DNA from: an uncultured Thiosulfatimonas sp.
GTDB taxonomy: Bacteria > Pseudomonadota > Gammaproteobacteria > Thiomicrospirales > Thiomicrospiraceae
NCBI GenBank assembly: GCA_964574275.1
Contig: CAZNML010000003.1
Location: forward strand, 1-51,131
Direction: 5' to 3'
Length of the DNA stretch: 51,131 bases
Shown: positions 35-45,173 of the stretch, one piece after another
How positions within the stretch are numbered: position 1 is the stretch's first letter
How the letters are laid out: each line of letters starts with the position of its first letter
The notes under the pieces: generated by a model
The model's database searches: none
The model's input: the letters and a program-made list of their open reading frames with translations, nothing else
What the model was told of the DNA's origin: nothing
Translations under genes and position numbers: made by a program

Positions 35-1597
35 TTAGTGTTTAAAATGGCGCATCCCTGTGAACACCATTGCGATACCATGCTCATCAGCCGCATCAAT
101 TACTTCCTGATCACGCATTGATCCACCTGGGTGAATAACCGCGGTGATACCGGCTTCTGCCGCCGCATCGATTCCATCACGGAATGGGAAGAATGCATCA
201 GAAGCCATTACCGAACCAGGAACCTCTAAACCTTCATCGGCAGCTTTGATACCAGCGATTTTAGCTGAGTAAACACGGCTCATTTGACCCGCACCGACAC
301 CGATCGTCATGCCGTCTTTAACGTAAACGATGGCGTTCGATTTAACGAATTTAGCCACTTTCCAAGCAAACATAAGGTCTTTCATCTGCTCTGCAGTTGG
401 TGCCTTTTTAGTCACTACCTTAAGGTCGGCTTCGTCAACCATGCCTAAGTCACGGTCTTGAACCAATAGTCCACCCGTTACACGCTTGTAGTCATAAGCC
501 GCTTCTTGCTGACCTAGTTCACCGCAAGCTAATAGTCGAACGTTTTTCTTCGCTTCAACTACCGCTTTCGCTTCGTCTGAAACAGTCGGAGCAATGATGA
601 CTTCAACAAATTGGCGGTCAACGATAGCTTGTGCCGTTTCTGCATCTAGTTCTGTATTGAATGCGATGATGCCACCGAATGCAGAAGTTGGGTCAGTTTT
701 GTAAGCGCGGTCATAGGCTTCAAACTGAGTTGCGCCGATTGATACACCACAAGGGTTGGCGTGCTTGACGATAACACAGGCGGTTTCAGTGAAAGTTTTG
801 ACCAATTCAAGTGCCGCATCGGTATCCGCGATATTGTTGAATGAAAGCTCTTTACCTTGAATCTGAGTCGCCGTTGAGATAGACGCTTCAGAAGGGTTGC
901 GTTCTGTATAGAAAGCCGCACTTTGATGCGGGTTCTCACCGTAACGCATAGTCTGTTTTTTAACCAGCTGAGTGTTGAAAGTACGCGAGAAGTTGTCTGC
1001 TGAATCTTCAGAGAACATCTTACCGAAGTAGTTAGAGATCGCACCGTCGTAACGTGAAGTTTGTTCAAAGGTCTTGATAGCTAGATCGAAACGTGTCGCG
1101 TGAGCCAGTTGACCATCGTTAGCTTGCATCTCTTCCAAGATGCGGCTGTAGTCTGCAGGGTCTGTTACTACAGCAACGTCTTTATGGTTCTTGGCTGCTG
1201 AACGTAGCATTGTTGGTCCACCGATATCGATGTTTTCAACCGCATCTTCCAGTTTGCAATCTGGGTTAGCAACAGTCGCTTCAAACGGGTATAGGTTAAC
1301 CACGACCATATCGATTGCATCGATACCGTGTTCAGCCATGACCGCGTCGTCAGTACCGCGACGACCTAGCAGACCACCGTGAATCTTAGGGTGAAGCGTT
1401 TTTACACGACCGTCCATCATCTCTGGGAAACCAGTGTATTCAGAAACTTCAGTAACAGGCAGGCCTGCTTCAGAAAGTACTTTATAAGTACCGCCAGTTG
1501 AAAGGATGGCAACATTCATTGCGGTTAACGACTCGGCAAACTCTAAAATGCCGGTTTTGTCTGAAACGCTAATCAGGGCGCGACGTACTGGTTTCAT
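35..1597 (-). CDS. purH: Bifunctional AICAR transformylase/IMP cyclohydrolase
   Basis: [13 protein letters not shown]-terminus, [45 protein letters not shown]-terminus. Confidence 0.99.
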
Positions 1598-1660
1598 TGG
1601 GGCTTCTCCAAAAATAAAAACTAAAATTAAAAATCTGTATGGGGTTGTGACTGACTCAAC

Positions 1661-1963
1661 TTAAATCAAATCGTATTTCTGCATTTTCTTGCGCAATGTA
1701 TTGCGATTGATGCCCAGAATCTGGGCACTCTTTGACTGATTTTGATCGGTTTGCGCCAGAATAAATTCAATCAACGGTTTCTCAACCTGTTGTATGACCA
1801 TTTCATAGACATCGGTCGCCGACTCTTTGTCGAGCGTGTCAAAATAGCTCTCTAAAGTCACGGTAACTTGTGCGCTCAAAGAGTGGTTAGGGTTCTTTTC
1901 TGTCATTCGCTTTAAATTAAATTCGAGGTTGATTCGATTCTGAGCAGGCCTGGTAAAAGGCAT
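1661..1963 (-). CDS. fis: Fis family DNA-binding protein
   Basis: C-terminal HTH NQSKSAQILGINRNTLRKKMQKY; between dusB and purH; AGGA RBS before ATG 1963 (alternative start 1906). Confidence 0.93.
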   Translation of the reverse strand: MPFTRPAQNRINLEFNLKRMTEKNPNHSLSAQVTVTLESYFDTLDKESATDVYEMVIQQVEKPLIEFILAQTDQNQSKSAQILGINRNTLRKKMQKYDLI

Positions 1964-1974
1964 GGTTTCCTGTT

Positions 1975-2943
1975 TTATAACAGGTCTGCAAAGAAATGTT
2001 CGATCAACAGCAGTTGTTCTTTAGGTTCGGTGAGCTGATTGAATGACCTGCGAAGTGTCGTTCCTTCGGGCAGGTGTTGGCTATACCATCCAATGTGTTT
2101 GCGGGCGATGCGAACACCGAGCATGTCACCGTATAACTGATGCAGCCCGGAGATATGTTCAATCATGGTGTGATAGAACTCATTCAGTGTCGGGGCGGGG
2201 AGGTGCGAACCGGTTTCAAGATAATGATTTATCTCACGAAATATCCAAGGGTAACCTTGAGTTGCACGTCCAATCATAATGCCATCAGCAGATGTGTATT
2301 CTAATACAAATTTGGCCTGCTCGGGAGTGTTAATATCACCATTTGCAATCACGGGAATGTCAATATTCTGTTTGACGCTACGAATGGTTTCGTATTCAGC
2401 TTGGCCGTTAAACTTATCTTCACGGGTGCGGCCGTGGATAGTCACCGCTTTGAGACCGCTCTGCTGAGCCAGTGTCGCAATCTGCAGAGCATTTTTATTG
2501 TTTTGGTCGGTGCCGACACGCATTTTAACGGTGACCGGAATGTCCACCGCATCCATCACCGCCTTAAAAATTTCAGCTACGGTTTCAGGTCTGCCCATCA
2601 GTGCCGAACCCGCAGCCACACTGCAGACTTTTTTGGCTGGGCAACCTAAGTTCAAGTCAATGATCTGTGCGCCATTCTGCTGTTGCCAGTGTGCGGCATC
2701 AGCCAGCTCCTGAGCATTGGTGCCCAGTAGTTGCACGGCTCTGGGTTCAGGATCACTTTTATCGACATGGCGAGTGGAGGATTTTTTTGAGTTCCACAGC
2801 TGTTTTTGTGAGGCGACCATCTCCGCCAGCGTGTAGCAGGCCCCATTCTGGCGACAGATTCGGCGGTAGACAGCATCGGTGATGCCTGCCATAGGGGCAA
2901 GCACAATATTATGTTCAAATTGATAGGGGCCAATGGTCAGCAT
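1975..2943 (-). CDS. dusB: tRNA-dihydrouridine synthase B
   Basis: LAPMAGITD, IDLNLGCPAKKV, TIHGRTR, IPVIANGDI; dusB-fis synteny. Confidence 0.96.
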   Translation of the reverse strand: MLTIGPYQFEHNIVLAPMAGITDAVYRRICRQNGACYTLAEMVASQKQLWNSKKSSTRHVDKSDPEPRAVQLLGTNAQELADAAHWQQQNGAQIIDLNLGCPAKKVCSVAAGSALMGRPETVAEIFKAVMDAVDIPVTVKMRVGTDQNNKNALQIATLAQQSGLKAVTIHGRTREDKFNGQAEYETIRSVKQNIDIPVIANGDINTPEQAKFVLEYTSADGIMIGRATQGYPWIFREINHYLETGSHLPAPTLNEFYHTMIEHISGLHQLYGDMLGVRIARKHIGWYSQHLPEGTTLRRSFNQLTEPKEQLLLIEHFFADLL

Positions 2944-2988: not shown

Positions 2989-3867
2989 TTAAGCTTGCTT
3001 GGTTCCCGCTAACAGTCCCCACTCTTCTTGAGATTTGAAGGTGTCTAAAATAATGCCAAACTGCTGATAGTGGTTTTGCAGCTCCTCGGCCTGTGAGGTC
3101 AGCAGGCCTGACAGAACCAGAGTTCCGCCCGGTTTAAGCAGATGGTCAAACTCTTCAGCCAACTCTTTCAGTGGCCCCGCCAGAATATTGGCAATCAGTA
3201 GATCAACCGGTTCCGATTTAAAGTCTTTAACCAGCTCAAATGGAATCTGTTCACCATTGCGTTTTGCATTTTCCAAACTGGCTGAAATCGCTTGCGGGTC
3301 AATGTCGGTACCGGCCACCGAAGCGGCACCCAGTTTTTGTGCCGCCAGCGCCAAAACGCCGGAACCGCAGCCATAATCGATTACACTGAGGTTTTCAGGT
3401 GGGTGCTGATCCAGCCAGGTTAAGCACTGGGCAGTGGTTGGATGAGTTCCGGTTCCAAATGCCATGCCGGGATCCAGCATTAGATTGACCGCATCAGGTT
3501 GTGGCGGTTGTGTCCAGCTTGGCACAATCCACAGGCGCTCACCAAATTGCATCGGTTCAAACTGATCCATCCAGGCACGAACCCAGTCTTTGTCTTCCAG
3601 CTGTTCAACTTTGAAGTTCTGTTTTTCAAGGGTCGGCTGCAGCAGACACAGAATATCGATGATGTTATCGCTGTTCATCTCAGCATCAAACAGGCCGATC
3701 ACTTTGGTACGGTTCCAGATCGGGGTGGTGCCTAGATCGGGCTCGTAGATGGGCTGGTCTTTGGCGTCTTCAAAGGTGACCGAACTGGCACCGACGTCCA
3801 TAAAGGCATCGGAAAGAGGTTCTGCTAGGGCTTCATCGACAGTGGTATTGATTTGGATCCAAGCCAT
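2989..3867 (-). CDS. prmA: Ribosomal protein L11 methyltransferase
   Basis: LDPGMAFGTGTHPTT, IDYGCGSGVLA SAM motif, ANILAGPL. Confidence 0.98.
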   Translation of the reverse strand: MAWIQINTTVDEALAEPLSDAFMDVGASSVTFEDAKDQPIYEPDLGTTPIWNRTKVIGLFDAEMNSDNIIDILCLLQPTLEKQNFKVEQLEDKDWVRAWMDQFEPMQFGERLWIVPSWTQPPQPDAVNLMLDPGMAFGTGTHPTTAQCLTWLDQHPPENLSVIDYGCGSGVLALAAQKLGAASVAGTDIDPQAISASLENAKRNGEQIPFELVKDFKSEPVDLLIANILAGPLKELAEEFDHLLKPGGTLVLSGLLTSQAEELQNHYQQFGIILDTFKSQEEWGLLAGTKQA

Positions 3868-9152: not shown

Positions 9153-9653
9153 ATGTTAAAAGTTTTCTTTCTGCTGTTTCTACTGATTCCTCTGATTGAG
9201 CTGTATGTATTGATACAGGTTGGTGGGGTGATTGGTGCTCTGCCCACTGTGCTATTGACTATTACCACTGCTGTTATTGGGGTTGCACTGATGAGAAGTC
9301 AGGGGATGGCTACTATGCATAAAGCACAAGTAGCAATGTCTTCCGGGCAGCCGCCGCAGATGGAGATTATGGAGGGGGTGTTTATTTTCCTGGGAGGCGT
9401 ATTTCTGTTTGTACCAGGCCTGATCAGTGATACCTTAGGTTTTCTGTTTTTGGTGCCGTTTATCCGTCAGGCGCTGATTAAGCAGGCGCTAAAAGGGACG
9501 CAGATGCGCGGTCACTACCGTTATCAGCGTGGTCAGGGCGACTACTATGAGGGGGAGTGGAGCGAAGCGGAACCAAAACAGCCGCACTCCCTGCAGCAAA
9601 AAGACATTATTGACGGTGAAGTGATCGATTCAGACTCTTCGCGCAAGTCTTGA
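9153..9653 (+). CDS. fxsA: FxsA family membrane protein
   Basis: LIPLIELYVLIQVG, GGVFLFVPGLISD, C-terminal IIDGE. Confidence 0.93.
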   Translation: MLKVFFLLFLLIPLIELYVLIQVGGVIGALPTVLLTITTAVIGVALMRSQGMATMHKAQVAMSSGQPPQMEIMEGVFIFLGGVFLFVPGLISDTLGFLFLVPFIRQALIKQALKGTQMRGHYRYQRGQGDYYEGEWSEAEPKQPHSLQQKDIIDGEVIDSDSSRKS

Positions 9654-10575: not shown

Positions 10576-10593
10576 CTGAACAGGCCTGTTCAG
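10576..10593. repeat. 18-bp perfect palindrome CTGAACAGGCCTGTTCAG (CAGGCCTG family)
   Basis: Direct reading; intergenic. Confidence 0.9.
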
Positions 10594-12549: not shown

Positions 12550-12578
12550 AAAAAAACCGCTTTGCAGCGGTTTTTTTT
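12550..12578. terminator. Intrinsic terminator downstream of the DUF302 gene
   Basis: AAAAAAACCGCT-TTGC-AGCGGTTTTTTTT. Confidence 0.85.
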
Positions 12579-12587: not shown

Positions 12588-12609
12588 AACTGACCAGGCC
12601 TGGTCAGTT
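12588..12609. repeat. 22-bp perfect palindrome AACTGACCAGGCCTGGTCAGTT (CAGGCCTG family)
   Basis: Direct reading; intergenic. Confidence 0.9.
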
Positions 12610-12625: not shown

Positions 12626-13195
12626 TTAGAATTCACCTGCTTTACCGTTTTGTAGCATTTCCCACATAGCGTTACGCACTTCCATTGTCGCTTCTAAAAG
12701 CTCTGGTGGCATTTTTTTACCCATTTTGATCGCCATGTCCATGTTCATTGTGTAGATGTGAAGACCATCTTCTTCTTCAACAATGTTTACACGACAAGGT
12801 AGGAAACCACCCATTGCTGGAGAGAAATCAACCATTTTACGTGCTGTTTCTGGGTTACAGAAAGACATTACGTGAATCACTTTTGAATCAATTCCACGTG
12901 CTTTCAGCTCTTCTGAAAGTGGTAGCTCACCCACGTTTTTGATGTTGCGGTTAACACCTACCGCGTTGATTGCGTCAATCACGTCTTCAAGTTCAACACC
13001 TTCGTCAACTTTAACTTCCCACATGGTTGCATCAGCGATATCGCCTTCTGCTTCAACCCACTTATCCCAGATTTCCATAAATGTTTCACCGGCACCGTCG
13101 TTTAGGTTACCGATCGCGTTCATTGTTCCACAACCTGAAAGAGTTGTAACAGCAGCTGCCAATAGAGCCGCTTTAATTGCGTGAGTGAATTTCAT
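12626..13195 (-). CDS. DUF302 domain lipoprotein
   Basis: Lipobox LSGC; DUF302-type FCNP...LPCRV cysteine pair; start placed at second Met (13195) behind GGAG. Confidence 0.82.
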   Translation of the reverse strand: MKFTHAIKAALLAAAVTTLSGCGTMNAIGNLNDGAGETFMEIWDKWVEAEGDIADATMWEVKVDEGVELEDVIDAINAVGVNRNIKNVGELPLSEELKARGIDSKVIHVMSFCNPETARKMVDFSPAMGGFLPCRVNIVEEEDGLHIYTMNMDMAIKMGKKMPPELLEATMEVRNAMWEMLQNGKAGEF

Positions 13196-13350
13196 TGATT
13201 TGTACTCCATTTAGTATTGAGTTTGTTGGCTAACCAACTTTTAACGCTGTGTAGATTACCTCTATATTAAGTAAAAAGGAATATTAAATTTTTTGGTGTT
13301 TAATAATTTAATTTTATTAAAATTTTCTAATACTCTTATATTAGCCCGTA

Positions 13351-14475
13351 TTAATGGGCTTTAAAGCCCATTCGGGACAGGACTTTACGTAGCTCGATAT
13401 GGTTATTGGTTTCAATAATATGTTGTTGCCACTCTCGATGAACCGGGTAGTTTCGGCGGTAATCTTCATAACTTTTGTGAAGTTGAGTGATCTGTGAATG
13501 ACGGATCGCCTGGTCATCATCGAGCGGGTTGTAGGTTTTTAGACAGATATCGGTGATCTGTATCTGCAGGCTGTCAAACTGCTGTGCCACGATTCTATCT
13601 GGTGCTGGTGGCAATGCGGCTTTCCACTGGGTTTGCGGTTCAATGCCCCAGTGCTGACACAGCTGCAGATAGACCATCTCTGTGCCGGCTATTTTGGCGT
13701 CCAAAGAGTGGCCTGCGATATGCGGGGTAGCAATGGAGGCTGTTTGATAGAGCTGTTCATCAATATGCGGTTCATTGACCCAGCAGTCAATAATATTGGT
13801 CAAGGTTTGCGTTTTACTCCAGGCCTGTTCATTAATAATGCCGCCGCGTGCCGCGTTAATGACTATTTGATTGGCGCTGATGTTTTTGAGTTGTACCTCG
13901 CCAATCAGGTCTTGGGTAGGATGCGCCCCGCTGGTGGTCAACGGGGTGTGTACAGTAATAATGTCCGCTTTTAGACAGCTCTCTAGATCACTGTATTGTG
14001 TTGCTAACTGCGGCTGCAGCTCAACTTTAGGTGGGTCATTCAGTAAACAGCTCATGCCCAGCGCACGCGCTTTTTGATAAACCAGGCTGCCGACATTACC
14101 GACCCCAATAATAGCCAGACTTTTCTGACTCAGATCAAACTGGTGTTTTTCTGCGGTCAGCAGTAGGCTGGTCATAATGTATTCGGCCACCGAGTTGGCG
14201 TTGCAGCCCTGTGCAGAGTAGAAGTGGATGCCACGCTCTTGCAGGTAACTCTGGTCAACATGATCCAGACCGACCACGGTGCTGCCGACAAAGGAGACCG
14301 AGCTGTGCTCCAGCAGTGCCTGGTTGATCTGTGTGCGGGAACGAATAATAAGTGCATCGGCCTGTTTGGCTGTTTGGGCATCGATACTCTTACCGGGTAT
14401 CAGTTTTAAGTTTCCGAGGTGTTGGAACATCTCTTTGGCGTAAGGGATGGCATCGTCAATAATAATGGTTTTCAC
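13351..14475 (-). CDS. pdxB: Erythronate-4-phosphate dehydrogenase
   Basis: ALIIRSRT, GLDHVD, GCNANSVAEY, IIGVGNVG, TPHIAGHS; GTG start. Confidence 0.94.
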   Translation of the reverse strand: MKTIIIDDAIPYAKEMFQHLGNLKLIPGKSIDAQTAKQADALIIRSRTQINQALLEHSSVSFVGSTVVGLDHVDQSYLQERGIHFYSAQGCNANSVAEYIMTSLLLTAEKHQFDLSQKSLAIIGVGNVGSLVYQKARALGMSCLLNDPPKVELQPQLATQYSDLESCLKADIITVHTPLTTSGAHPTQDLIGEVQLKNISANQIVINAARGGIINEQAWSKTQTLTNIIDCWVNEPHIDEQLYQTASIATPHIAGHSLDAKIAGTEMVYLQLCQHWGIEPQTQWKAALPPAPDRIVAQQFDSLQIQITDICLKTYNPLDDDQAIRHSQITQLHKSYEDYRRNYPVHREWQQHIIETNNHIELRKVLSRMGFKAH

Positions 14476-21411: not shown

Positions 21412-21551
21412 GCCCGAAAAAATTGGCAAAAAAATGATCAGGCCTGATTAGTTATAATGAAGTTTACTTATTTAAAAATTACGTAAATAGACGCTACAAT
21501 GCAAAGTGTTGTATTCAATTCAACCTAGATACAGAAGAGGATAATAAGATC

Positions 21552-22619: not shown

Positions 22620-22627
22620 TTTGAGAA

Positions 22628-23131
22628 ATGAGCACTCACCTACATAAGCAAAAAGGGGCTGTTATGTTAGAGACAGCCTACTTTTTGCCTATTATGATTG
22701 CCGTGATCCTGTTTATGGTGGAAGTTGTTTCCTATGCAATGAACAGCTTTGCGGCCAATGATGTATTAACCGATATACACTCCGCGATGGTTGCGGAAGG
22801 TGAGCAGGTTGCGGAACTGGAAGAAGATGATACGCTTCCCGCTTCGATCAAGTACGCCAGTTGTAATGCAGGTAAAGTGGCTCTGCCAACAGGCAGCAGC
22901 AGCTCCATTACTTCAATAGTGAAGACGACCTTAGCCAGCAAAAATATCACCTTTCTGGGATCTGATCCTGGCGCTACCCATATTAGCAAAAGCTCGGTTT
23001 CTGGTTTTGATGTTTATGTCATCACCTTTAGCGGCACGGCCAACTCTTTGGTGATACCCAATTTTATGTCTGAACTGCTCCCTATTAGCGTTAATACCGT
23101 TATCAGTATCAAAGACAACTGTGTTGTTTGA
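22628..23131 (+). CDS. tadE: TadE/TadF-like minor pilin
   Basis: KQKG|AVMLETAYFLP prepilin motif with Glu+5; position in Tad operon. Confidence 0.78.
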   Translation: MSTHLHKQKGAVMLETAYFLPIMIAVILFMVEVVSYAMNSFAANDVLTDIHSAMVAEGEQVAELEEDDTLPASIKYASCNAGKVALPTGSSSSITSIVKTTLASKNITFLGSDPGATHISKSSVSGFDVYVITFSGTANSLVIPNFMSELLPISVNTVISIKDNCVV

Positions 23132-23174
23132 TGACTGACCCAATTCCAAACATTCTAAATATTAAGAGATTTTT

Positions 23175-24059
23175 ATGAAACTTCAACGCAGTGATCTGAT
23201 TCTGTACGGGGTCGCTTTGCTCTCCTCTATGCTGGCCGTTAGCCTGGTTTATGGTTATGTTGAGAACCGCGTGGCCGAAGCCGAAAGCAAGGCCGAAGTG
23301 AAAACCGTGACCGTGATTGAAAAGCCGGAGCTACGTTCGGTGGTGGTGGCCAATCGTGATCTCTACCGTGGCGAGAAGATCGAGATCGACGACATCAAGG
23401 TGCTGATGGTACCGACTGAGGGCGTGGTAGCGAATGGCGTGATGGTCAACCCCGACAAGATTGTGGGTCGTGTCGCCAAGCAGCACATCTATGCTGGCGA
23501 GTGGATGATCGATCAGAAGATCGGTCTGCAGGACGATGACGAGGGTCGGGTTGAGTCGTTGTTGGAGGCGGGCATGCGTGCCATGCGTATTCCGGTGTCA
23601 GCCGAGAGCGGTCTATTGGGGATGCTGAACCCAAGCGATCATGTGGATGTGATCAGTGTGTTTGAAAGTGCTGATGGCAAGCGCATGATCAGTCGCACCA
23701 TCCTGCAGAATATTGAGGTGCTCTCCATCGGCCAGACCAACCGCATGGGGAAACTGAAGGATGAAGAGCTCAAGCAGTCCTATGAAAACCATGAGGGTGA
23801 GGCGTTTGTTAAAGCGTCAATGGTAGCGCTTAATGTCAATACACGTCAGGCAGAGCAGCTGGCATTGGCAATGAATGTCGGTGCCATTCATCTGGCGTTA
23901 CGTGGACCGGCGGATGTCAAACTGGTGACCACTGACGGCGTCAATGTCAAAGTGATGGAGCGCAGCAAACAGCGTCCGCCAAAATACAAACCAAAAACCA
24001 AACGTGATGTGATTCAGATTATGCAGGGTGACAGTGTTCAAGAGGTATTTACACGATGA
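23175..24059 (+). CDS. cpaB: Flp pilus assembly protein CpaB/RcpC
   Basis: N-terminal TM; SAF domain VVVANRDL; GMRAMRIPV, LNPSDHVDVI, ILQNIEVLSIGQ. Confidence 0.92.
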   Translation: MKLQRSDLILYGVALLSSMLAVSLVYGYVENRVAEAESKAEVKTVTVIEKPELRSVVVANRDLYRGEKIEIDDIKVLMVPTEGVVANGVMVNPDKIVGRVAKQHIYAGEWMIDQKIGLQDDDEGRVESLLEAGMRAMRIPVSAESGLLGMLNPSDHVDVISVFESADGKRMISRTILQNIEVLSIGQTNRMGKLKDEELKQSYENHEGEAFVKASMVALNVNTRQAEQLALAMNVGAIHLALRGPADVKLVTTDGVNVKVMERSKQRPPKYKPKTKRDVIQIMQGDSVQEVFTR

Positions 24060-25636: not shown

Positions 25637-26895
25637 TGACACAGATGTTATCAAGTGATTCAATGGCGCTGAAACACGCGCTCTATTTTGGTACGGATGA
25701 AGATCTGCAGGAAGCAGTACGTGTATCGATTATGTCGAAATACACCACAGAGGCGATGAGTGAAGTGCCGCATATCTGGCCGGAAGATGTCAATCTGGTG
25801 CTGTTGGAGTACCAGGGAGAAGCCGATCAGGTGCTGGCTAACATCACACAGATTCTGACCCTGGCCAAAGGGGTACCGGTGTATGTGCTGCTGAAAGAGA
25901 AGAACGCCGACTTCATTATTGAAGCCTCTCATCAAGGGGTACAGGGATTTATCGAGTGCCCGAATGAGGTGTTTCATATTCTCTCTATTCTGCATATGCA
26001 GGATCGCCGCCGCCAGGGTAAAAACGGTAATGTCTCTTCACTATTCAGCTTGAAAGGAGGGGTGGGCTGTACCGCTTTAGCCACCAATATCGCCTCACAC
26101 TTGAACGATATGACCGAGGGGCGTACCGTACTGGTTGATCTAAATATGCCGCTGGGAGATACCGCTCTGTATCTGAATATGGAGGGGCAACGCCTCTACT
26201 CACTGACCGATTTTGTCTATAACTTGAACCGTTTTGATGAGAACCTGATCTACAAATCCTTAAGCCGTCATGAGTCGGGGTTGTATGTGCTGTCGCTGCC
26301 GACTGAAGTCAGTGAGCTGGATGGGATCAACGGCGATATTATTAAAACCATTATTGAGTCACTGCGCCGTTATTACGATCATGTGTTAATCGATTGCGCC
26401 AGTGATCTGTCGGATATGACCCTGAGCTGTCTGGATGAGTCGGATAATATTGTTTTGGTTGCCGAGCCGTCGTTGTCGTCGTTAAGAGCGGTTAACTCGG
26501 TGATTCAACTGACGCAGAAACTGGGTTATATCCGCGAGTCAATCAAACTGGTGGTCAACCGCAGCACCAGCCAGGAAGATGAGATGCTGGATGACGTGAT
26601 TGATGCCCTGGATGTGGATACGGTGGTGCGTGTCGCTAACCAGTATGCCGATTTTAATGATTCGTTGAAAGAGGGCGTGCTGCTTAAGGAGTTTAACCCG
26701 GACTCCATTATCAATCGCCAGTTACACAATATCGCCAATATGCTGCACACCGGCAGTCTGCAGCTGGATATTGAACTGGAGCAGGCGTCGGCAAGCAGCG
26801 CCAAAGGTCTTTTGTCAGGCCTGTTCAAAAAGAACAAAAAGTCAAAATCCAAAGCAGAGCCGGTGATTGACGATGCTAAAGTGGCGGTATCCTAA
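25636..26895 (+). CDS. cpaE: Flp pilus localisation ATPase CpaE/TadZ
   Basis: Degenerate receiver domain plus MinD-like SLKGGVGCT and LVDLN..GD motifs. Confidence 0.88.
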
Positions 26896-28304
26896 TGAGT
26901 TTACGTGACCGTTTGAGACAAGTTGAACAGCACCGCCAGGTGAGTGCGGATATTGCCGCCAATGACTCGGTGGATAAGCCGGACCCGATTGCCAAGCGCA
27001 CGCTATCTGAAACCAATCTGGCGCAAAACCCAACCCTGTTGGAGATTAAGAGGCGCTGCCAAAAGAAAGCCACCGAAGATGAGGCTTTTTATCAGGCTGA
27101 TAGCAATGAGACTCGTCAAGAGCTGCGTCCGCGCTTAGAGGAGCTGGTGCGTGAAAATGCGGCTGATCTAGGGTATCCACTGTCGGAGATTGAGGTCAGA
27201 CAGTTGGGGGTGGAGCTGCTGGATGAGATCTACGGTTTGGGGCCGATTGAACCGCTGCTGGCCGACCCGAGTGTTTCCGATATTCTGATTAACCGTTATA
27301 ACCAGGTCTATGTTGAGCGCGGCGGTATGCTGGAGCTGACCGATATCAGTTTTATCAGTGAAGAGCACCTGCGCAATAAGGTCGACCGTATGCTGTATGT
27401 CACCGGTCGCCGTGTGGATGAGTCCTCACCGCTGGTGGATGCGCGTCTGCCGGACGGTTCGCGTATCAATATCATTATCCCACCGCTGGCGGTGGATGGC
27501 ATCAGTGTCTCCATTCGTCGTTTTCCAGAGAAACACCTGCGTCCACAAGATCTGATCGCCTTTGGTTCCATGACCGAACAGATGTACACCTTTTTGGACT
27601 ATGCGGTTAAGGCGGGTCTGAATATGCTGGTATGTGGCGGAACCGGTTCCGGTAAAACCACCACCTTGAATATGTTGTCTGGCTTGATTCCGGAGAACGA
27701 GCGTACTGTCACCATTGAGGACAGCGCCGAGCTGCGTATGCAGCAGACCCATGTGGTGCGTTTGGAGACGCGTCCACCAAATGCCGAAGGCGTCGGTGAG
27801 GTGACGCAACGTGAACTGTTGAAAAATGCGCTACGTATGCGCCCGGACCGCATTGTTCTGGGTGAGGTGCGTGGTGGCGAAGTGCTGGATATGCTACAGG
27901 CGATGAACACCGGGCACGACGGCTCTTTGGCAACGCTACACGCCAACAGTCCGCGTGACAGTATTGCGCGTCTGGAGCTGATGATTAACTTGAGTGGAGT
28001 CGATATTCCAGCGGCCTCGATTCGTAAGCAGATCGCCAGTGCGATTGATCTGATTATTTATGTTAACCGTGGTAAAGACGGTAAGCGTCGGGTGGAGTCG
28101 GTCACCGAAGTGGTAGGGATCGAAGAGGAGAATGTGGTTCTGCAGGAGATTTTTGTTTTTGAAAATCAGCTGGATAAGCAGTCTGAAACCATGCGCGGCA
28201 CCTTTAAGGCGACCGGCCTGCGCCCAAGTTGCGGTAAGAAGTGTGAGGCGGTCGGTTATCGTCTGCCGCAGGATCTGTTTAGTTTTTCTAAGGAAGTATT
28301 TTAA
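26895..28304 (+). CDS. tadA: Tad assembly ATPase CpaF/TadA
   Basis: GGTGSGKTT Walker A; TIEDSAEL; [15 protein letters not shown]; AMNTGHDGS. Confidence 0.97.
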
Positions 28305-29245
28305 TGGATCTGGGGTTTATTATTGTCGCTTTGGCGATCATTGTGCCGTTTGCCATCTTTGCGTTTACCTTATCCTTCAAGCAGCGCCGTCAACATCAAG
28401 CGCAGCTGAATGCCTTGATGAAACGTGTGGGTCTGAAAGGGTCAGAGACCACGCAGCTTAAAGATCAGCTGCTGCAGCACAAAGATAAGAGTTGGTACCT
28501 GTGGCTGACAGGCCTGTTTAAAAAGGCCGGGATTGCCAATCGTAAGGATGTGACTCGTCTGCTGGTGGTGCAGGCATCGCTGCTGTTTATCAGTGCGTTT
28601 GTATTGGCGACCAAGTTGAATACCCTGTCTGAAAATCAGCTGATCATCAGTATGTTACTGCCATTTCTACCGAGCGCCTACCTGTATTTCAAAATCAAAC
28701 AGCGTCAAACTGAGTTGCGTAAACAGTTTCCGGAGATGCTGGACTCGATTGTGCGCTCTTTGCACTCAGGCTACGGCATCGACGGCGCTCTGGGAGCGGT
28801 TGGCGAAGACATGCGCGGCCCTTTGGCAGAGGAGATGCGTGAGGTCAATAAGCAGCTGACTTTAGGGATCAGTATGCGCGATATTCTGCGAGAGTTTCAG
28901 CGTCGTGTCGCTCTGCCGGAAGCACAATTTTTTGTTATCACTTTGATTATTCAACGTGAGACCGGTGGCCAGCTGGCGGCGATTCTCTCCGAACTGTCTA
29001 AACTGATGCGCCGTCGTGATAACTTTCAGGCCAAACTGAAAACCCTGACGGCGGAGTCTCGTTTTACCGCCTGGTTTATCGGTGGGGCGCCGATTATTTA
29101 TATCGGCTACAAATACTTCTTTGACCGTGAGTCGATGCACTTCTTTTTGAATGACCCTTTAGGCTTTAAGTTATTTTTGTTCTCTTTGTTGATGATCGGT
29201 TTAGGAACCTTGATTCTGCGTCAAATGTTAAAGATGAGATTTTAA
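28304..29245 (+). CDS. tadB: Tad platform protein TadB (T2SSF family)
   Basis: QFPEMLDSIVRSLHSG; IQRETGGQLA; LTAESR. Confidence 0.93.
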   Translation: MDLGFIIVALAIIVPFAIFAFTLSFKQRRQHQAQLNALMKRVGLKGSETTQLKDQLLQHKDKSWYLWLTGLFKKAGIANRKDVTRLLVVQASLLFISAFVLATKLNTLSENQLIISMLLPFLPSAYLYFKIKQRQTELRKQFPEMLDSIVRSLHSGYGIDGALGAVGEDMRGPLAEEMREVNKQLTLGISMRDILREFQRRVALPEAQFFVITLIIQRETGGQLAAILSELSKLMRRRDNFQAKLKTLTAESRFTAWFIGGAPIIYIGYKYFFDRESMHFFLNDPLGFKLFLFSLLMIGLGTLILRQMLKMRF

Positions 29246-30147
29246 TGATGATGGATTTAGCGGTACTGCTGTTAACGGTTGCCAGTTTGTCTTTTGTGAC
29301 GGTGTGGCTGTTTGTCAATCGCGCCTTGAAACTGCAAAGTAATCAGTTGCAAAAGGAGCGCATTAAAGCGCGTATCGGTCTGGCAAGCCAGTACAGCAAA
29401 AACAAACGCTGTCTGTCGAGCTGCTGGTGGTGCTCTTTGGGTCGAGCCATTGGTCCTAAAAGCAAGAAAGAGCTGCAAACCACGCAGCAGCAGCTGGTCA
29501 GTGCCGGTTTTAGGGAGGAGCGTCATATTGGGGCTTACTTCTTTATTAAGTATGTCACGCTTCTCGCATCAGTACTGCTTTCGGCGGCGCTATGGGCCTG
29601 GTTCGCTGTGCGTTTGGAGATTGTGATCCTGATTCCGATTGTTATGTTGCTGCTGCCGGAACGTATTCTGATCTATTTAGGGCAGCACCGTCTGGCACAG
29701 ATTAGTAATCACCTGCCGGACTTTTTGGATATGTGTAATATCTGTATGAATGCCGGTTTGAGTTATCTGGTGGCGATTAAACGGGTGTCTGAGGAGTTAA
29801 AAGAGATTAATCCGGAGATCTGTTACGAATTTCAGTATCTGCTGGATCAGATTCAGATGGGCATGGCGCGTACCGAGGCGCTGCGCCAGTTTGCCGAGCG
29901 TAACCCGACTAAAGACATTCAAAATCTGGTGCAGGTTCTGATTCAAAATGAGAAACTCGGTAGCTCAATCAGTGAGGCTCTGAATGAGTTCTCGCGCCGC
30001 ATGTATCAGGAGCGCGAACAGGCTCTGGAAGAGAAGGCGGCGAAAACTTCGGCCAAAATGGCGGTGGTGATTATGCCTTTTTTAATGGTGCCTTATCTTA
30101 TTTTACTGCTGGGCGAACGCATGGTTCTGCTTGGAAGAGGGTTTTAA
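29245..30147 (+). CDS. tadC: Tad platform protein TadC (T2SSF family)
   Basis: LPDFLDM..CMNAGL; QNEKLGSSI; EEKAAK. Confidence 0.92.
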   Translation: MMMDLAVLLLTVASLSFVTVWLFVNRALKLQSNQLQKERIKARIGLASQYSKNKRCLSSCWWCSLGRAIGPKSKKELQTTQQQLVSAGFREERHIGAYFFIKYVTLLASVLLSAALWAWFAVRLEIVILIPIVMLLLPERILIYLGQHRLAQISNHLPDFLDMCNICMNAGLSYLVAIKRVSEELKEINPEICYEFQYLLDQIQMGMARTEALRQFAERNPTKDIQNLVQVLIQNEKLGSSISEALNEFSRRMYQEREQALEEKAAKTSAKMAVVIMPFLMVPYLILLLGERMVLLGRGF

Positions 30148-30780
30148 ATGTCAGTATTGTTTAACGTTAAAGTCATGCGAACAGGCCTGTTGCTTCTGTT
30201 ATTGGGGTTGTTAAGCGCGTGCTCGCAAGCGCCTAAAAAAGCGGCAGCTCCGATCAAACCCAGCGTACAGCAGAGTCAGACGCCGCCTTTGGCTTCTGAT
30301 CTGAGTGCCAAGGATGAATATGAATTTGCGTTGGACTTGGCGCGTTTGGAGCTGAAACGCCAGCGTTATGCTCGTGCCGAGGGGCTGCTGCAAAAGTTGC
30401 GTAAGATTGATCGACAGGATGTGCGTGTCTATCGCTCTCTGGCACAGGTGTATGAAGCGCAGAAAAAATCGCAAATGGCGCTGATCGCCTGGAAACAGGT
30501 GAATAAATCGGCAGATAAAACCATTCGTGACGAAGCGGAGCTGGCCAGACTGGCGCTCATGCATGAGGAGTTTGTTTTGGCAGAACAGATCTACCAGGCC
30601 TGGTTAAAATCGGATTCGGAGTTGCAGCAGGTCAGTGCCTTCAATAATTTGGGTTTCTCGGCGGTTCTGCAAAAACGTTACCCGCAGGCAAAACAGTATT
30701 TCGAACAGGCGCTGGCTTTGGATCCGCTTAATACCAAAGCGCTTAATAACTTAAAACTGGTTAATACCTTAATCGAGTAA
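30148..30780 (+). CDS. tadD: TPR lipoprotein, TadD-like pilotin
   Basis: Lipobox LSAC; TPR NNLG..A..YFEQALALDP; follows tadC. Confidence 0.78.
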   Translation: MSVLFNVKVMRTGLLLLLLGLLSACSQAPKKAAAPIKPSVQQSQTPPLASDLSAKDEYEFALDLARLELKRQRYARAEGLLQKLRKIDRQDVRVYRSLAQVYEAQKKSQMALIAWKQVNKSADKTIRDEAELARLALMHEEFVLAEQIYQAWLKSDSELQQVSAFNNLGFSAVLQKRYPQAKQYFEQALALDPLNTKALNNLKLVNTLIE

Positions 30781-30782
30781 CT

Positions 30783-32165
30783 ATGACAGCAGCGAATATT
30801 TTAAAAAAGCAGCGCGGAGCCATCTCTATTCTAGGGGCGGCGTCGATCGCCTTGTCTCTGTATGGGTTTGATCAGGTTCTGCAGTATGGTAATGCCAAGA
30901 TTTTAGACCGTGAATTGGACAACTATGCCCGCACGGCTGCGCAGGTTGCTTTGCGTTCGGAACTGGCTCTGACCAAAGCGGGGATTGAATCCGGCAGTAT
31001 GGATCCGCAGCAGACCGACAAGATCATCAACAGCTTGCTGGCTCAGGTCGAGATGCATCTGGAAGCGTCGGATGATCATGATGTCAATCTGAAGAAAAAG
31101 ATCACCTTTGGTAACTTTGCCGATGATTCGATCTGTAACTCCTCCGATCCGGAAGTACGCAAAGGCTGTTTTATCCCTCTGAGCAGTGATGCCAGTAATC
31201 CTCGTGCAGCCGAAACACCACCGGACTTTAGTGCGGTGTCGGTGCAGTTATGGAGTACCGACAGCTTCTATACCTTTACCCCGCAGGGGCGGGCGACTTA
31301 TGGCCTGGAGGCTTCAGAGCAAGACAGCGACTCCGGCTGCTACTGTAAGAATCGCTATACCGCCTGCCTGGATATGGATCTGACTACTGCTGAGCTGGCG
31401 CCGATTCCCGCCACTGAAGCCGCAGCCATTGCCGTTAAGGGTTCGGATGCACGCAAAAACTACTGTAACTATGGTTATACCGATACCAGGGTGAGTGATT
31501 TAACAGAGACCAAGTACCCTTGGGCTGAGTTTGATGATGGCTGGATTGGTCGAACACCGGATACGGCGAATCTGTTTATGTTTTTCACCCAGGGTTATGA
31601 CAATGCCAGTTTTTCTAAAGTGTTGGAGCATAAGCCCTTGGCTCTTGAGGATGGTGAGGACCCTTTGTATCAAACAGGGGGCATGTTTGCGGCAATGATG
31701 GGGATGATGGGCGCTTCTGATCTAAGGTTTGGTTATGAGCAGAATCAGTCGACCTACAAGAAAGGTGAAATTACACCGAGTTCAGATGCGAGCGATTTTC
31801 GTTGCAAAAAAAGCTTTGGCCTAGCAAATTGCAGCGACAGTGGCTGGGGGAGTTCAAATTGGAAAACCGTTTTAGATGATAGTTTTTACGTGGGGTATCA
31901 AGCTACCTGTATTCCGGGAACCTCTTCAGCTAATTTGGCTATGTCCCGCTGCTTGGCCTATAACGACGGGGCAACGCCTAGATATGAAAGCTGTCTGGAG
32001 ATCGAGCGCAGAAGCACTATGTCGATGAACTTCTTTGAGCGTATGATGGCGTTTTTTATGGGGCCGATTCTCAACTGGGAGCGCTCCTATGAAGGCCTGA
32101 ACTGCGAAATGAAACAGATGAAATACAAAGGCTGGCTATTCTGGGGCGGCTGGGAAGAGGTTTAA
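30783..32165 (+). CDS. TadG-like pilin-anchored protein with Cys/Met-rich C-terminal region
   Basis: KQRG|AISILGAA prepilin-like N-terminus; ELDNYARTAA Tad-domain-like helix; 12 Cys; last gene of Tad operon. Confidence 0.7.
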   Translation: MTAANILKKQRGAISILGAASIALSLYGFDQVLQYGNAKILDRELDNYARTAAQVALRSELALTKAGIESGSMDPQQTDKIINSLLAQVEMHLEASDDHDVNLKKKITFGNFADDSICNSSDPEVRKGCFIPLSSDASNPRAAETPPDFSAVSVQLWSTDSFYTFTPQGRATYGLEASEQDSDSGCYCKNRYTACLDMDLTTAELAPIPATEAAAIAVKGSDARKNYCNYGYTDTRVSDLTETKYPWAEFDDGWIGRTPDTANLFMFFTQGYDNASFSKVLEHKPLALEDGEDPLYQTGGMFAAMMGMMGASDLRFGYEQNQSTYKKGEITPSSDASDFRCKKSFGLANCSDSGWGSSNWKTVLDDSFYVGYQATCIPGTSSANLAMSRCLAYNDGATPRYESCLEIERRSTMSMNFFERMMAFFMGPILNWERSYEGLNCEMKQMKYKGWLFWGGWEEV

Positions 32166-35059: not shown

Positions 35060-35389
35060 ATGTTTGGTGGAAAAGGTGGAATCGGTAATCTAATGAAACA
35101 GGCGCAAGAGATGCAGAAAAACATGCAGGATGCGCAGGAACAGATTGCTAAAATGGAAGTAACCGGTGAAGCGGGCGGCGGCATGGTTAAGGTCTCTATG
35201 ACTGGTAAGCATGAGCTGGTCAAAGTTGAAATCGACGACAGTCTGATGGATGACAAGGAGATGCTGGAAGACCTGTTTGCCGCAGCGGTTAACAGTGCGG
35301 TGCGTCGTGTTGAAGAGGTCACACAAGAAAAAATGGGTGGTTTGACCGATGGCATGAACCTGCCTGCTGGAATGAAAATGCCGTTTTAA
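35060..35389 (+). CDS. ybaB: YbaB/EbfC nucleoid-associated protein
   Basis: [29 protein letters not shown]; dnaX-ybaB-recR synteny. Confidence 0.96.
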
Positions 35390-35405
35390 GCAGGCCTGCT
35401 TAAAA
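35384..35405. repeat. 22-bp perfect palindrome TTTTAAGCAGGCCTGCTTAAAA (CAGGCCTG family)
   Basis: Direct reading; overlaps the ybaB stop codon. Confidence 0.9.
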
Positions 35406-38717: not shown

Positions 38718-38741
38718 AATCTGAACAGGCCTGATCAGATT
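38718..38741. repeat. 24-bp near-perfect palindrome AATCTGAACAGGCCTGATCAGATT (CAGGCCTG family)
   Basis: Direct reading; one mismatched pair; just downstream of the mgtE stop. Confidence 0.88.
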
Positions 38742-42081: not shown

Positions 42082-42672
42082 TTACTTTTGGCTGTCTTGT
42101 GGCTGGTAGTCCGTTTGCACATCTGACAGCAGTTGGTAGTGCCTGTTCTGAATATCGGCTTTCAGGCCTGTTCCAGTGGTTGTGGCGTTAGGCTGAGTGA
42201 TCTCAACCCGCTGATCACTGGTAAGCACCTGTGTCTCTGAATTATAAGTGATGTACTCGGTTTTTAAGGTTTTATTTTGATCTGCCTGACTCAGCTGTTG
42301 GATCGGTTGGTCGAACTGGGTTAAAACAACTTTACCACTGAGTTCAAGTTCATTGTCGTTGATAGAGTGCCCATTTTCACTGCGAATAAAAAGGGTCTGC
42401 TCGGCTTGAATCATAGTGACACGGGGTTCGGTGAAGTCGCTGCTTTTAGCGGCATCATCGTAAAACAGGGTGTCTGCCTGAATGGTGGAACCGGGTTGAT
42501 TGCTGACCTTGTCAAATTGCCAGGTGGTGCTGTTGAATAGTTGCCAGCTGTAGCCGGACTCTTCTAAGGTGCTGGAGGCGGGAGGAGCTTTTTTAGCGGT
42601 CTGTTGGAAAACAAACCACAGGGCGAATACAGAGAGGATGAGTGTAAACAAGGTAAAGCGGATGTTTAGCAT
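42082..42672 (-). CDS. lptC: LPS export protein LptC
   Basis: N-terminal TM plus beta-jellyroll pattern (LSGKVVL, LKTEYI, TGTGLKAD); between kdsC and lptA. Confidence 0.85.
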   Translation of the reverse strand: MLNIRFTLFTLILSVFALWFVFQQTAKKAPPASSTLEESGYSWQLFNSTTWQFDKVSNQPGSTIQADTLFYDDAAKSSDFTEPRVTMIQAEQTLFIRSENGHSINDNELELSGKVVLTQFDQPIQQLSQADQNKTLKTEYITYNSETQVLTSDQRVEITQPNATTTGTGLKADIQNRHYQLLSDVQTDYQPQDSQK

Positions 42673-43310: not shown

Positions 43311-44306
43311 TTATGCGCCGGTAGAGCGGAAATATAACGTCACTAAATATGCCACAAAGCCGAAGGTAAGTAAAAGCCCTTTTGAGGTGCTGATAACGGC
43401 ATCGCCTTTTCTAGAGATCGCCAGCAGCAACATGGCCAGAGTAAAGCCAAGCATGACGATCATATCCACCGACAGGACTTCAGGTGTTAATACCGATGGC
43501 GCCAGAATCGCCGGTACCGCCAGTACGGCCAGGATATTAAACAGGTTGGAGCCGACGATATTACCGATCATTAGATCGGCCTCGTTTTTGCGTGCTGCGG
43601 CAATGGCGGCTGCCAGTTCAGGTAGACTGGTTCCAATGGCGATAATGGTCAGACCGATAACCACTTCAGGTACTTCAAAGAAGGTGGCGATCTCTACCGC
43701 ACCCCATACCATCATTTTGGCGCTGACCATCAGCACGATCAGGCCACCCAGCAGCATGATCAGCGCTTTGTTCATGGTGTGCTCAGCCAGGCTCTCTACC
43801 GCTTCATTGGTCTCTTCAGCAAGCGGATCTTTTGGATCAACCGATTTGTTGACCTTGATCATCCATAGCATCACCAATACCAGTGTTACCGCCAGGATCA
43901 GACCGTCTATCAGACCGAGTTCACCATCAATCATTAATAGGTAGGCACCGATGGAGATGGCCATCAATACTGGAAGTTCACGTCGTATTAAGGTGGATTT
44001 TACGACAATGGGAGCGATCAGGGCGGTGACACCCAGTACCAGACCGATATTAGCGATATTGGAACCGATGGCATTACCGATGGCGAGCCCCGGACTGTTG
44101 TCAATCGAAGCTAAGCTGGCGACTACGATCTCCGGCATGGAGGTACCAAAACCGAGAACGACCACACCGATAATCAATGGGGAGATCGAAAGGTGTATCG
44201 CCGTGCTGGCCGCTCCGTCAATGAAAATGTCTGAACTCCAAACCAGTAGCGCTAAGCCGATTATTAGGATTAGGGTGGGAAGAAGTAGGGTGGTAGTCAT
44301 AGCCAT
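43311..44306 (-). CDS. yrbG: Ca2+/Na+ antiporter (CaCA family, YrbG)
   Basis: Two alpha repeats GTSMPE..GNAIGSNI and GTSLPE..GNIVGSNL. Confidence 0.93.
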   Translation of the reverse strand: MAMTTTLLLPTLILIIGLALLVWSSDIFIDGAASTAIHLSISPLIIGVVVLGFGTSMPEIVVASLASIDNSPGLAIGNAIGSNIANIGLVLGVTALIAPIVVKSTLIRRELPVLMAISIGAYLLMIDGELGLIDGLILAVTLVLVMLWMIKVNKSVDPKDPLAEETNEAVESLAEHTMNKALIMLLGGLIVLMVSAKMMVWGAVEIATFFEVPEVVIGLTIIAIGTSLPELAAAIAAARKNEADLMIGNIVGSNLFNILAVLAVPAILAPSVLTPEVLSVDMIVMLGFTLAMLLLAISRKGDAVISTSKGLLLTFGFVAYLVTLYFRSTGA

Positions 44307-44445
44307 TGTCTTTTTGAATCACTTAAGTTAGTGGGGCATTATAACTAATGTGATGGAATGATATAAAATTAATTTATGCAGGAGGGGCTACGAAACGGAG
44401 TTTGATGAAGTAAACTGGGCAAATTATTGTGTAGAAGATAATGAA

Positions 44446-45060
44446 TTGGAGCGCTGTTTGAATAATTTACAGATCGGTACGCTGGGTTGGTTGCACTCGG
44501 ATTGGGTTGGTGGCTTCTATCCTGATGATATGCCACAGGAGTGGCAGCTCGATTACTACAGCAATGCCTTTAGAGTGGTGTTAGTGCCTGAAAATCAGTG
44601 GCTCAGTTGGTCAGATGAAGATCTGGAGGAGTGTGTTGATGGCGTGGAAGGGGAGTTTGGCTACTATCTTAAGGTCGAGCAGCAGATTACCGAAGACAAG
44701 GCGCAGCAGTTGCAGGCTGTTCAGCAGGGTTTAGGCTCGCTGTTAAAAGGGGTGGTGGTGTTTTCAGAGACGGAGATTCCTGAGGCCATGATTCACGGAC
44801 AGCCGGTGACGCTGGTTTCCACAAGTTTGCGTCTGCCCGGCTGGAGTTATCAGACTGAGGCGTTTACCTTATCGGGGAATCCGCTTGGTTTCTGCGCTCA
44901 ACTGCAGGAAGACGGTAAATGGCAGGCCGCGCTGCTAAAAGATTTTATGCACTCTCTGCCGGATAATATCAGCGGCGCAGCCTTTTTTATTGGTGGGGAT
45001 TCAATTAATATGACCCAGGTTGCGAATCTAAAAGTCGTCGGTGAGTTTTTAGGTTATTAA
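44446..45060 (+). CDS. DUF72 (YecE-like) domain protein, short/divergent
   Basis: N-terminus IGTLGW.HSDWVGGFYPDD..WQLDYYS..F resembles DUF72; TTG start uncertain. Confidence 0.6.
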   Translation: MERCLNNLQIGTLGWLHSDWVGGFYPDDMPQEWQLDYYSNAFRVVLVPENQWLSWSDEDLEECVDGVEGEFGYYLKVEQQITEDKAQQLQAVQQGLGSLLKGVVVFSETEIPEAMIHGQPVTLVSTSLRLPGWSYQTEAFTLSGNPLGFCAQLQEDGKWQAALLKDFMHSLPDNISGAAFFIGGDSINMTQVANLKVVGEFLGY

Positions 45061-45173
45061 TAAGTAATAAAATAGGGCCTTATCAGATCATTTTTGTCGC
45101 CTTGAGTTTTAAAATGATCAGGCCTGGTTATAATTGACCGCTTTTAAAACCAGCAAACACTGTTTCCATCAGA

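What the first reader, a model, noticed from the sequence alone, without database searches (positions are those of the whole stretch)
1460..45126. Highly iterated palindrome CAGGCCTG across the whole window
Seen: at least 18 perfect copies, counted by eye, starting at 1460, 1945, 3103, 9415, 10581, 12595, 13820, 21439, 26816, 28509, 30182, 30595, 32176, 35391, 38726, 41346, 42163 and 45119. A random 8-mer is expected about 0.8 times in 51 kb (51131/4^8). Copies occur inside CDSs on both strands, and seven are intergenic. Known analogies: cyanobacterial HIP1 (GCGATCGC), DNA uptake sequences, and dispersed chromosome-organising sites (matS, SlmA sites). Inference: a genome-wide cis-acting signal with an unknown cognate protein (methyltransferase/repair bias, nucleoid organiser or uptake receptor). 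I know of no description of it for this kind of organism.
Basis: partly seen in the sequence, partly recalled or inferred. Interest (0 to 1): 0.8.

Follow-up and report, generated by a model that had tools for sequence, protein, structure and literature searches.

The report
Genome-wide palindromic watermark of sulfur oxidisers
This sulfur-oxidising bacterium and nearly half of its family carry the palindrome CAGGCCTG about once every 2.4 kb; here it is the core of a 24-base symmetric site, which likely serves as a self-DNA tag for natural DNA uptake, but its reader protein was not found.

Summary
Confirmed: 18 of 18 copies (0.8 expected). The genome, a Thiomicrorhabdus-type sulfur oxidiser, has 977 copies (0.42/kb; 13-18-fold over Markov nulls), in all reading frames, even along the chromosome. 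The octamer is the strict core of a 24-bp dyad, AAAWTRAN-CAGGCCTG-NTYAWTTT; listed sites of relatives are mostly ACCAGGCCTGGT, with clade dialects. 44 of 99 family genomes are rich (118-568/Mb), 55 poor (0-64/Mb), interleaved on an RpoB tree; 0 of 397 other genomes of the class reach 100/Mb. No DNA methyltransferase family tested tracks it. Its profile (all-or-none core, AT flanks, doubled tripeptides, permissive genes, hairpin pairs after stop codons) matches Neisseria/Haemophilus uptake sequences, but those are not palindromic, ComEC is kept in motif-poor genomes, and no receptor was found (TetR, Fis, VF530, MinE, pilin clusters rejected). The same octamer is published for Synechococcus PCC 6312, whose plasmid carries it mostly as CCAGGCCTGG without the arms. 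This scan noted the octamer before in a Thiomicrospira genome (e1-4173747); not found in print for this family. Best reading: uptake/transformation signal (0.4); rivals: nucleoid-protein site (0.3), repair or recombination ratchet (0.2).

The parts
1460..1467 (.). core, inside purH (35-1597, -), xCA GGC CTG frame
1945..1952 (.). core, in the 5' extension of the fis ORF (1661-1963, -); probably upstream of the true start
3103..3110 (.). core, inside prmA
9415..9422 (.). core, inside fxsA
10576..10593 (.). intergenic site CTGAA-CAGGCCTG-TTCAG (core 10581-10588)
12588..12609 (.). perfect 22-bp palindrome around core 12595-12602, 16 bp past the stop of ORF 12626-13210 (-)
12550..12578 (-). separate canonical intrinsic-terminator-like hairpin next to the 12595 site; the motif is not needed as terminator here
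13820..13827 (.). core, inside pdxB, CAG GCC TGx frame
21439..21446 (.). core, intergenic after the RND permease; consensus arms, no stable hairpin
26816..26823 (.). core, inside an ORF of the Flp/Tad pilus locus; conserved in L001
28509..28516 (.). core, inside an ORF of the Flp/Tad locus; conserved in L001
30182..30189 (.). core, inside ORF 30148-30780; not conserved in L001
30595..30602 (.). core, inside ORF 30148-30780; conserved in L001
32176..32183 (.). core, intergenic, between ORF 30783-32165 and tRNA-Ser
35384..35405 (.). perfect 22-bp palindrome around core 35391-35398, at the stop of ORF 35060-35389 (ybaB/ebfC-like, label recalled) before recR; core kept in L001 and L002, one-off in L004, deleted in L003
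38718..38741 (.). 24-bp dyad around core 38726-38733, downstream of mgtE (-); core conserved in L001
41346..41353 (.). core, inside lptB
42163..42170 (.). core, inside lptC
45119..45126 (.). core, intergenic upstream of mlaF; consensus arms, core not in a stable hairpin

Best explanation
CAGGCCTG is the strict core of a 24-bp symmetric site present about once per 2.4 kb throughout the chromosome, and it most likely works as a DNA uptake-type signal: a probably dimeric reader in the transformation pathway would favour DNA bearing the site, so that such DNA recombines in more often and the sites accumulate. Shown: abundance, dyad arms, origin by substitution, retention in a rich relative, dialects, repeated switches on the tree, and presence of comEC and dprA (family hits) and of comEA-, pilT/U- and MSHA-like pilus genes (labels read by eye). 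Inferred: that a protein reads it as double-stranded DNA, that the step is uptake, that motif-poor lineages lost the bias and their sites then decayed, and that hairpins at gene ends are secondary use as terminators.
For: All-or-none core: 977 perfect sites against about 53 expected, whereas 1095 one-mismatch sites exceed background only at the two outer positions and lack the arms (arm score >3 in 60% of perfect, 0-8% of one-off, 2.4% of random sites). PMC1626085 (passages) names this strong consensus as a mark of USS/DUS, unlike regulator sites. AT-rich flanks. QAW and QAC are the two most over-represented tripeptides, 2.9x and 2.3x; 208 of 257 QA[CW/stop] contexts use the motif. Density 0.39-0.40/kb in genes 40-70% identical to G003, 0.11 in genes >=85%, 0.21 in genes with no G003 hit, as described for uptake sequences in PMC2817400 (abstract). 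309 coding sites align gap-free to G003, mode 3 mismatches. 32 close pairs, 28 between genes, 13 at 24-25 bp spacing, like DUS terminator pairs (PMC2397512, passages). No ori/ter bias; spacing more even than random (CV 0.87 vs 0.97+/-0.04). 5 of 6 window sites kept in L001 at 73% DNA identity. Dialects by clade. ComEC in 92 of 98, DprA in 5 of 5.
Against: DUS and USS are not palindromes (PMC1939737, passages); a dyad fits an intracellular dimer at least as well. ComEC, DprA and the MSHA-like pilins are present in motif-poor genomes too. No basic minor pilin was seen in G000 and no pilin cluster tracked richness in 22 genomes (150 of 178 matches listed). No canonical PilA/PilQ-type set was recognised in G000 or G003. 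Genes without a G003 hit still carry 0.21 sites/kb, whereas DUS are reported absent from recently acquired genes. 0 of 3 window sites are kept in the rich genome G019. The PCC 6312 plasmid carries 12 sites in 23 kb, which there suggests an intracellular process. No report of natural transformation in this family appeared in the listings.
Confidence: 0.4

Rival explanations
1. The site is bound inside the cell by a dimeric chromosome-organising protein (nucleoid-associated, loop anchor or topoisomerase helper), and weak selection keeps about one site per 2-3 kb.
For: True two-armed dyad: A at -2 in 83% of symmetrised intergenic sites, left and right arm scores positively correlated, r=0.25. A- and T-tracts lie about two helical turns apart. 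Even spacing. A structural role is proposed for HIP1 (PMC5861425). A TetR-family gene is present in 32 of 44 rich and 9 of 54 poor genomes.
Against: No ori/ter pattern. One-off sites with good arms are rare, unlike graded protein sites. The TetR is not found in six 99-100% complete rich genomes (G017, G021, G035, G108, G080, G081) and is found in five poor genomes of the genus. The Fis recognition helix is alike in 10 rich and 10 poor genomes. VF530 and MinE do not track the motif. About eleven switches on the tree mean it is dispensable.
Confidence: 0.3
2. The sites are produced by a biased repair or recombination step (Elhai's ratchet for cyanobacterial HIPs, or a Chi-like hotspot read by a dimeric nuclease) and have little function of their own.
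For: Same decamer CCAGGCCTGG as in Synechococcus PCC 6312 (left flank C in 10 and right flank G in 11 of 12 plasmid sites). One-offs are enriched only at the outer positions, as for HIP1 (PMC4390886, abstract). Central one-offs are slightly more depleted than in G003 (0.49-0.92 vs 0.59-1.04). HIP1 aids transformation partly like Chi (10.1101/2024.09.10.611283, abstract).
Against: C5 methyltransferases occur in 17 of 44 rich and 25 of 55 poor genomes. N6/N4 type in 1 of 5 and D12 type in 0 of 5 closed rich genomes. G025 and G122 show none in four families, apart from short partial Eco57I-family matches of PrmC-like size. TAGGCCTG is enriched 3x, not depleted as Vsr repair would predict. A ratchet does not readily explain arms reaching 8 bp out.
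Confidence: 0.2
3. The motif is a terminator loop or a REP-like mobile repeat.
For: 408 of 977 sites lie outside called genes; densest in convergent gaps (3.9/kb); 29 of 406 have perfect arms >=7 bp against about 2.5 expected.
Against: 569 sites are inside genes, with the same arms and no pairing covariation. Only 49 of 371 intergenic 32-mers fold at -10 kcal/mol or better. Coding sites align without gaps. In G023 a hairpin persists with the core replaced.
Confidence: 0.05

Closest known systems
CAGGCCTG alternative HIP of Synechococcus sp. PCC 6312 (PMC5861425; PMC13756078)
   Same: Identical octamer, near-identical density and enrichment (0.37/kb, O/E 14.7 there; 0.42/kb, 13.1 here); the decamer CCAGGCCTGG dominates on its plasmid and in listed sites of G073 and G074.
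   Different: There a single strain, flanks lack the -2 A and the A-tracts (12 plasmid sites), and GGCC methylation is proposed. Here a whole proteobacterial family, 24-bp dyad, dialects, no co-occurring methyltransferase.
HIP1 (GCGATCGC) of cyanobacteria
   Same: GC-rich octamer palindrome, coding and non-coding, all frames, arises by substitution, one-offs enriched at the ends, repeated losses.
   Different: Different sequence; HIP1 is tied to GATC and CGATCG methyltransferases; lower density than many HIP1 genomes; extended arms.
Pasteurellaceae USS and Neisseriaceae DUS
   Same: Density of order 1/kb, anomalously strong core, AT-rich flanks (USS), doubled tripeptides, permissive genes, close pairs in terminators, no replichore bias, clade dialects.
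   Different: USS and DUS are asymmetric and read by minor pilins (ComP; ComN/PpdA predicted, PMC12616744 abstract). Here the site is a dyad, no such pilin was found, and uptake bias is untested.
matS/MatP, SlmA sites, parS (recalled)
   Same: Palindromic sites of 12-16 bp read by dimers.
   Different: Those number tens and are confined to or excluded from chromosome regions; here about 1000 sites are uniform.

Membership tests
Highly iterated palindromes (HIP) | octamer palindrome far above Markov-2 expectation, genome-wide, all frames | tested here: met
   977 sites, O/E 13.1; frames 208/319/42 vs 59/40/1.4. Below the O/E>16 cut-off used for HIP1-rich genomes in PMC5861425, like PCC 6312.
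Highly iterated palindromes (HIP) | sites conserved between related genomes beyond background | tested here: inconclusive
   5 of 6 kept in L001 at 73% identity, 0 of 3 in G019; too few sites.
Highly iterated palindromes (HIP) | cognate DNA methyltransferase co-occurs | tested here: not met
   PF02384 and unknown families were not searched
Highly iterated palindromes (HIP) | periodic long-range spacing | not tested
   G000 is in 222 contigs; only evenness of neighbour gaps was tested
DNA uptake sequences (DUS/USS) | strong consensus: perfect copies far exceed the excess of one-off copies | tested here: met
   about 925 excess perfect sites; one-offs above background only at the outer two positions
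DNA uptake sequences (DUS/USS) | arise by substitution, in permissive genes, bias tripeptides, close pairs at gene ends | tested here: met
DNA uptake sequences (DUS/USS) | competence genes present | tested here: met
   ComEC 92 of 98, DprA 5 of 5; ComEA-, PilT/U- and MSHA-like genes labelled by eye; also present in poor genomes
DNA uptake sequences (DUS/USS) | non-palindromic motif | tested here: not met
   perfect dyad with both arms
DNA uptake sequences (DUS/USS) | cognate minor-pilin receptor | tested here: inconclusive
   none recognised in a 90% complete genome; pilin clusters do not track richness
DNA uptake sequences (DUS/USS) | preferential uptake of motif-bearing DNA | not testable with these tools
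   needs a bench assay
matS / SlmA / parS sites | confined to or excluded from a chromosome region | tested here: not met
   0.36-0.43/kb in six ori-to-ter bins, p=0.84, mapped through 1350 syntenic orthologues onto closed G003
REP / BIME elements | extragenic, inserted as copies | tested here: not met
   569 of 977 coding; 309 gap-free alignments

The most novel reading that the evidence does not exclude
Thiomicrospiraceae are a third bacterial family with sequence-specific DNA uptake, the first to use a palindromic, methylation-independent 12-24-bp signal read by a new kind of dimeric receptor.
Probability: 0.3. Interest if true: 0.87.

Novelty: new variant of a known kind. Interest (0 to 1): 0.68.

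Why it matters
Why HIP1-like palindromes fill genomes has been open for 30 years, and sequence-specific uptake is established in only two families. If uptake holds, adding the site should ease genetic work on these deep-sea and soda-lake autotrophs.

Tried and rejected
Gene subtraction against the closed motif-poor genome G003: 297 of 2125 called G000 proteins had no hit. They were screened by synteny and by eye on N-termini, not by a family scan; part of the output was cut and reprinted. No rich relative could be read whole, so the intended intersection with a second rich genome was not done. Tested and rejected as reader: C67/C130 pilus system (only 43-45% paralogues in 3 rich genomes); MinE (absent in rich G016, present in poor G023 and G075); TetR C65:10032-10622 (32 of 44 rich, 9 of 54 poor); Fis, tested because the arms resemble recalled Fis half-sites (helix alike in both classes; R-to-K in rich G017 and poor G107 and G003); YbaB/EbfC (80-93% identical in both classes); VF530 (50 of 76, absent from rich g27 genomes); pilin counts. 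G003 has no replacement palindrome (CAGGCCTG 31 vs 41 expected; top palindrome O/E 4.35 on 22 sites). Viral contigs: 8 stretches with the 16-mer; 7 of the 8 held one core and one held two. A plasmid search with window DNA gave only dusB matches. Delaye and Moya 2011 on HIP1 across prokaryotes is not held and was not read.
Full report
Observation. The 18 copies are at the stated places; shuffles give 0.79. The window is contig C3 of G000 (2.32 Mb, 222 contigs, 90% complete) and holds housekeeping genes and an Flp/Tad locus. G000 has 977 sites, 0.42/kb, the commonest 8-mer, 13-fold over a second-order Markov null where the next palindrome reaches 2.8, and 18.5-fold with the motif masked. The 25 contigs without a site are all 6.1 kb or shorter. 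With my own gene calls (2125 genes), 569 sites are coding (208/319/42 by frame; 59/40/1.4 after synonymous-codon shuffling) and 408 lie in the 11% left over. The caller missed genes (126 of 320 further ORFs had a G003 hit), so the intergenic share is somewhat overstated.

Anatomy. The unit is longer than eight bases. Around 406 intergenic sites, symmetrised, A is 83% at -2, T 68% at -4, and A 62/70/56% at -6/-7/-8; position -1 is free. The same pattern, weaker, holds at 567 coding sites. The consensus is AAAWTRAN-CAGGCCTG-NTYAWTTT, about 4 bits in the arms. Left and right arms pair no more than the profile predicts in coding DNA. Between genes there is a modest excess, with 29 of 406 sites having perfect arms of 7 bp or more against about 2.5 expected. 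The core is all-or-none: one-mismatch octamers are above background only at the outer positions (O/E 1.55-3.05 at the first base, up to 1.7 at the second, 0.49-0.92 in the centre) and do not carry arms. In motif-poor G003 the same variants are 0.59-1.57. Thirty-two pairs lie within 40 bp, 28 between genes, 13 at 24-25 bp; some read as terminator-like hairpins. Only 49 of 371 single intergenic sites fold strongly. Of the seven intergenic window sites, four fold better than most shuffles and three do not; 12595 sits beside an ordinary terminator hairpin.

Origin and cost. 309 coding sites align gap-free to G003; 8 are identical and the mode is 3 mismatches, so they arise by substitution. QAW and QAC are the two most over-represented tripeptides. 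Residues encoded by sites are less often identical in G003 than the same residues elsewhere (Cys 0.56 vs 0.83, Gly 0.72 vs 0.88, Arg 0.39 vs 0.80; Ser 0.64 vs 0.62 shows no drop). Site codons overall (64%) match nearby codons (66%). Density is 0.11/kb in the most conserved genes, 0.39-0.40 in genes 40-70% identical and 0.21 in genes with no hit. Mapped onto closed G003 through 1350 of 1460 orthologues, density is flat from origin to terminus (p=0.84). Gaps are more even than random (CV 0.87 vs 0.97; 0.66 for 44 gaps in G074), though gene length may contribute.

Distribution. Of 99 family genomes, 44 have 118-568 sites/Mb and 55 have 0-64: 21 of 42 in the own genus, 11 of 23 in g27, 11 of 11 in g30, 1 of 3 in g31, none in g26, g28 or g29. 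Named records: Thiomicrorhabdus sp. Milos-T2 825, T. cannonii 74, ISEC-1 31, T. marina 20. On an RpoB tree of 56 genomes (60 were searched, five gave no full-length hit, G000 added) I count by eye about eleven switches: one gain, nine losses and a regain in G009. G009 is 8% contaminated and the tree rests on one gene. Some poor genomes keep the flank signature in their few sites (A..T flanks: G091 6 of 7, G120 84 of 96, G023 33 of 95; against G003 2 of 32), which points to decay after loss. In 17.5 kb aligned between G019 and G023, 1 of 5 G019 sites is kept. Five of 6 window sites are kept in L001 at 73% identity, 0 of 3 in G019. Flanks differ by clade: 42 of the 45 listed G074 sites are ACCAGGCCTGGT; A..T flanks are 47% in G000, about 70% in G074 and G112, and about 20% in G073, G078, G093 and G095. 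None of 397 genomes from other families of the class reaches 100/Mb (highest about 85).

Search for the cause. C5 methyltransferases are in 17 of 44 rich and 25 of 55 poor genomes. N6/N4 and D12 families were found in 1 of 5 and 0 of 5 closed rich genomes. G000, G025 and G122 give only short partial Eco57I-family matches. ComEC (92 of 98), DprA (5 of 5) and an MSHA-like pilus cluster are in both classes. Subtraction against G003 gave 297 proteins. The best candidate, a TetR-family gene, is in 32 of 44 rich and 9 of 54 poor genomes but was not found in six complete rich ones; others failed outright (see Tried and rejected).

Mechanism. A strict core with graded, symmetric, A-tract arms that persist inside genes indicates recognition of double-stranded DNA by a two-fold symmetric protein (inference). 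The population pattern matches what PMC1626085 (passages), PMC2817400 (abstract) and PMC2397512 (passages) describe for USS and DUS, so I commit to an uptake or transformation signal at 0.4. Dyad symmetry, the missing receptor and intact competence genes in poor genomes keep a nucleoid-protein site (0.3) and a repair or recombination ratchet (0.2) alive; terminators are a secondary use (0.05).

Known and new. Whole-word search for CAGGCCTG found 3 papers, 2 listed, both on cyanobacteria. PMC5861425 (passages and section 25 read; supplements not read) reports it in Synechococcus sp. PCC 6312 at 0.37/kb, O/E 14.7, function unknown. PMC13756078 (passages) notes its GGCC core as a methylation target. 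PMC4390886 (abstract, first part of section 18, term search) gives the ratchet model and does not mention PCC 6312. The PCC 6312 plasmid has 12 sites in 23 kb, nearly all CCAGGCCTGG, without the arms. That two distant lineages iterate the same decamer is unexplained. Searches for the longer forms and for this family with palindrome, methylome, uptake or transformation terms (listings only) showed no description; the library lacks most subscription journals. An earlier finding of this scan (e1-4173747) reports the octamer in a Thiomicrospira genome with the same analogies. The few lines shown of it do not mention the 24-bp dyad, the dialects, the rich/poor map or the candidate tests. Verdict: real, family-specific, a new variant of the HIP/uptake-sequence kind; interest 0.68.

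Noticed in passing
G000 contig C128 (5.4 kb): Genes whose N-termini I recognise (recalled, not searched) as phiX174 proteins: likely a sequencing spike-in binned into this assembly; it holds no motif.
   Followed up: no
G003 (L139-L257) and G016: G003 has a minC-like hit but no minD/minE orthologue hit; MinE was also not found in closed G016. Min loss in closed Thiomicrorhabdus-type genomes.
   Followed up: partly
G000:C65:10032-10622: TetR-family gene conserved across the family (49-77% identity in rich genomes), in 32 of 44 motif-rich and 9 of 54 motif-poor genomes; target unknown.
   Followed up: partly
G000 contigs C67 and C130: An extra type IV pilus-like system (secretin, two ATPases, three large pilin-like ORFs) absent from G003; no close orthologue in five other genomes.
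   Followed up: partly
window 22419-32165: Flp/Tad pilus locus, absent from G003, present in L001; carries four coding motif sites, three of them conserved in L001.
   Followed up: partly
G062 (genus g26): A motif-poor genome with 20 A..T-flanked sites, many within 1 kb of contig starts: probably part of a repeated element.
   Followed up: no
L318 (pSYN6312.01): GGCC occurs 173 times in 23 kb at 46.6% G+C and HIP1 not at all.
   Followed up: no
G024:C1:88273-89076: ComEC open frame of 594 aa against about 850 in relatives, in a genome that seems to have lost the motif recently; may be broken.
   Followed up: no
G000:C82:4770-4970 and C10:27975-28337: Two lysine/alanine-rich, histone-H1-like ORFs with no G003 hit (low complexity may hide hits).
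   Followed up: no
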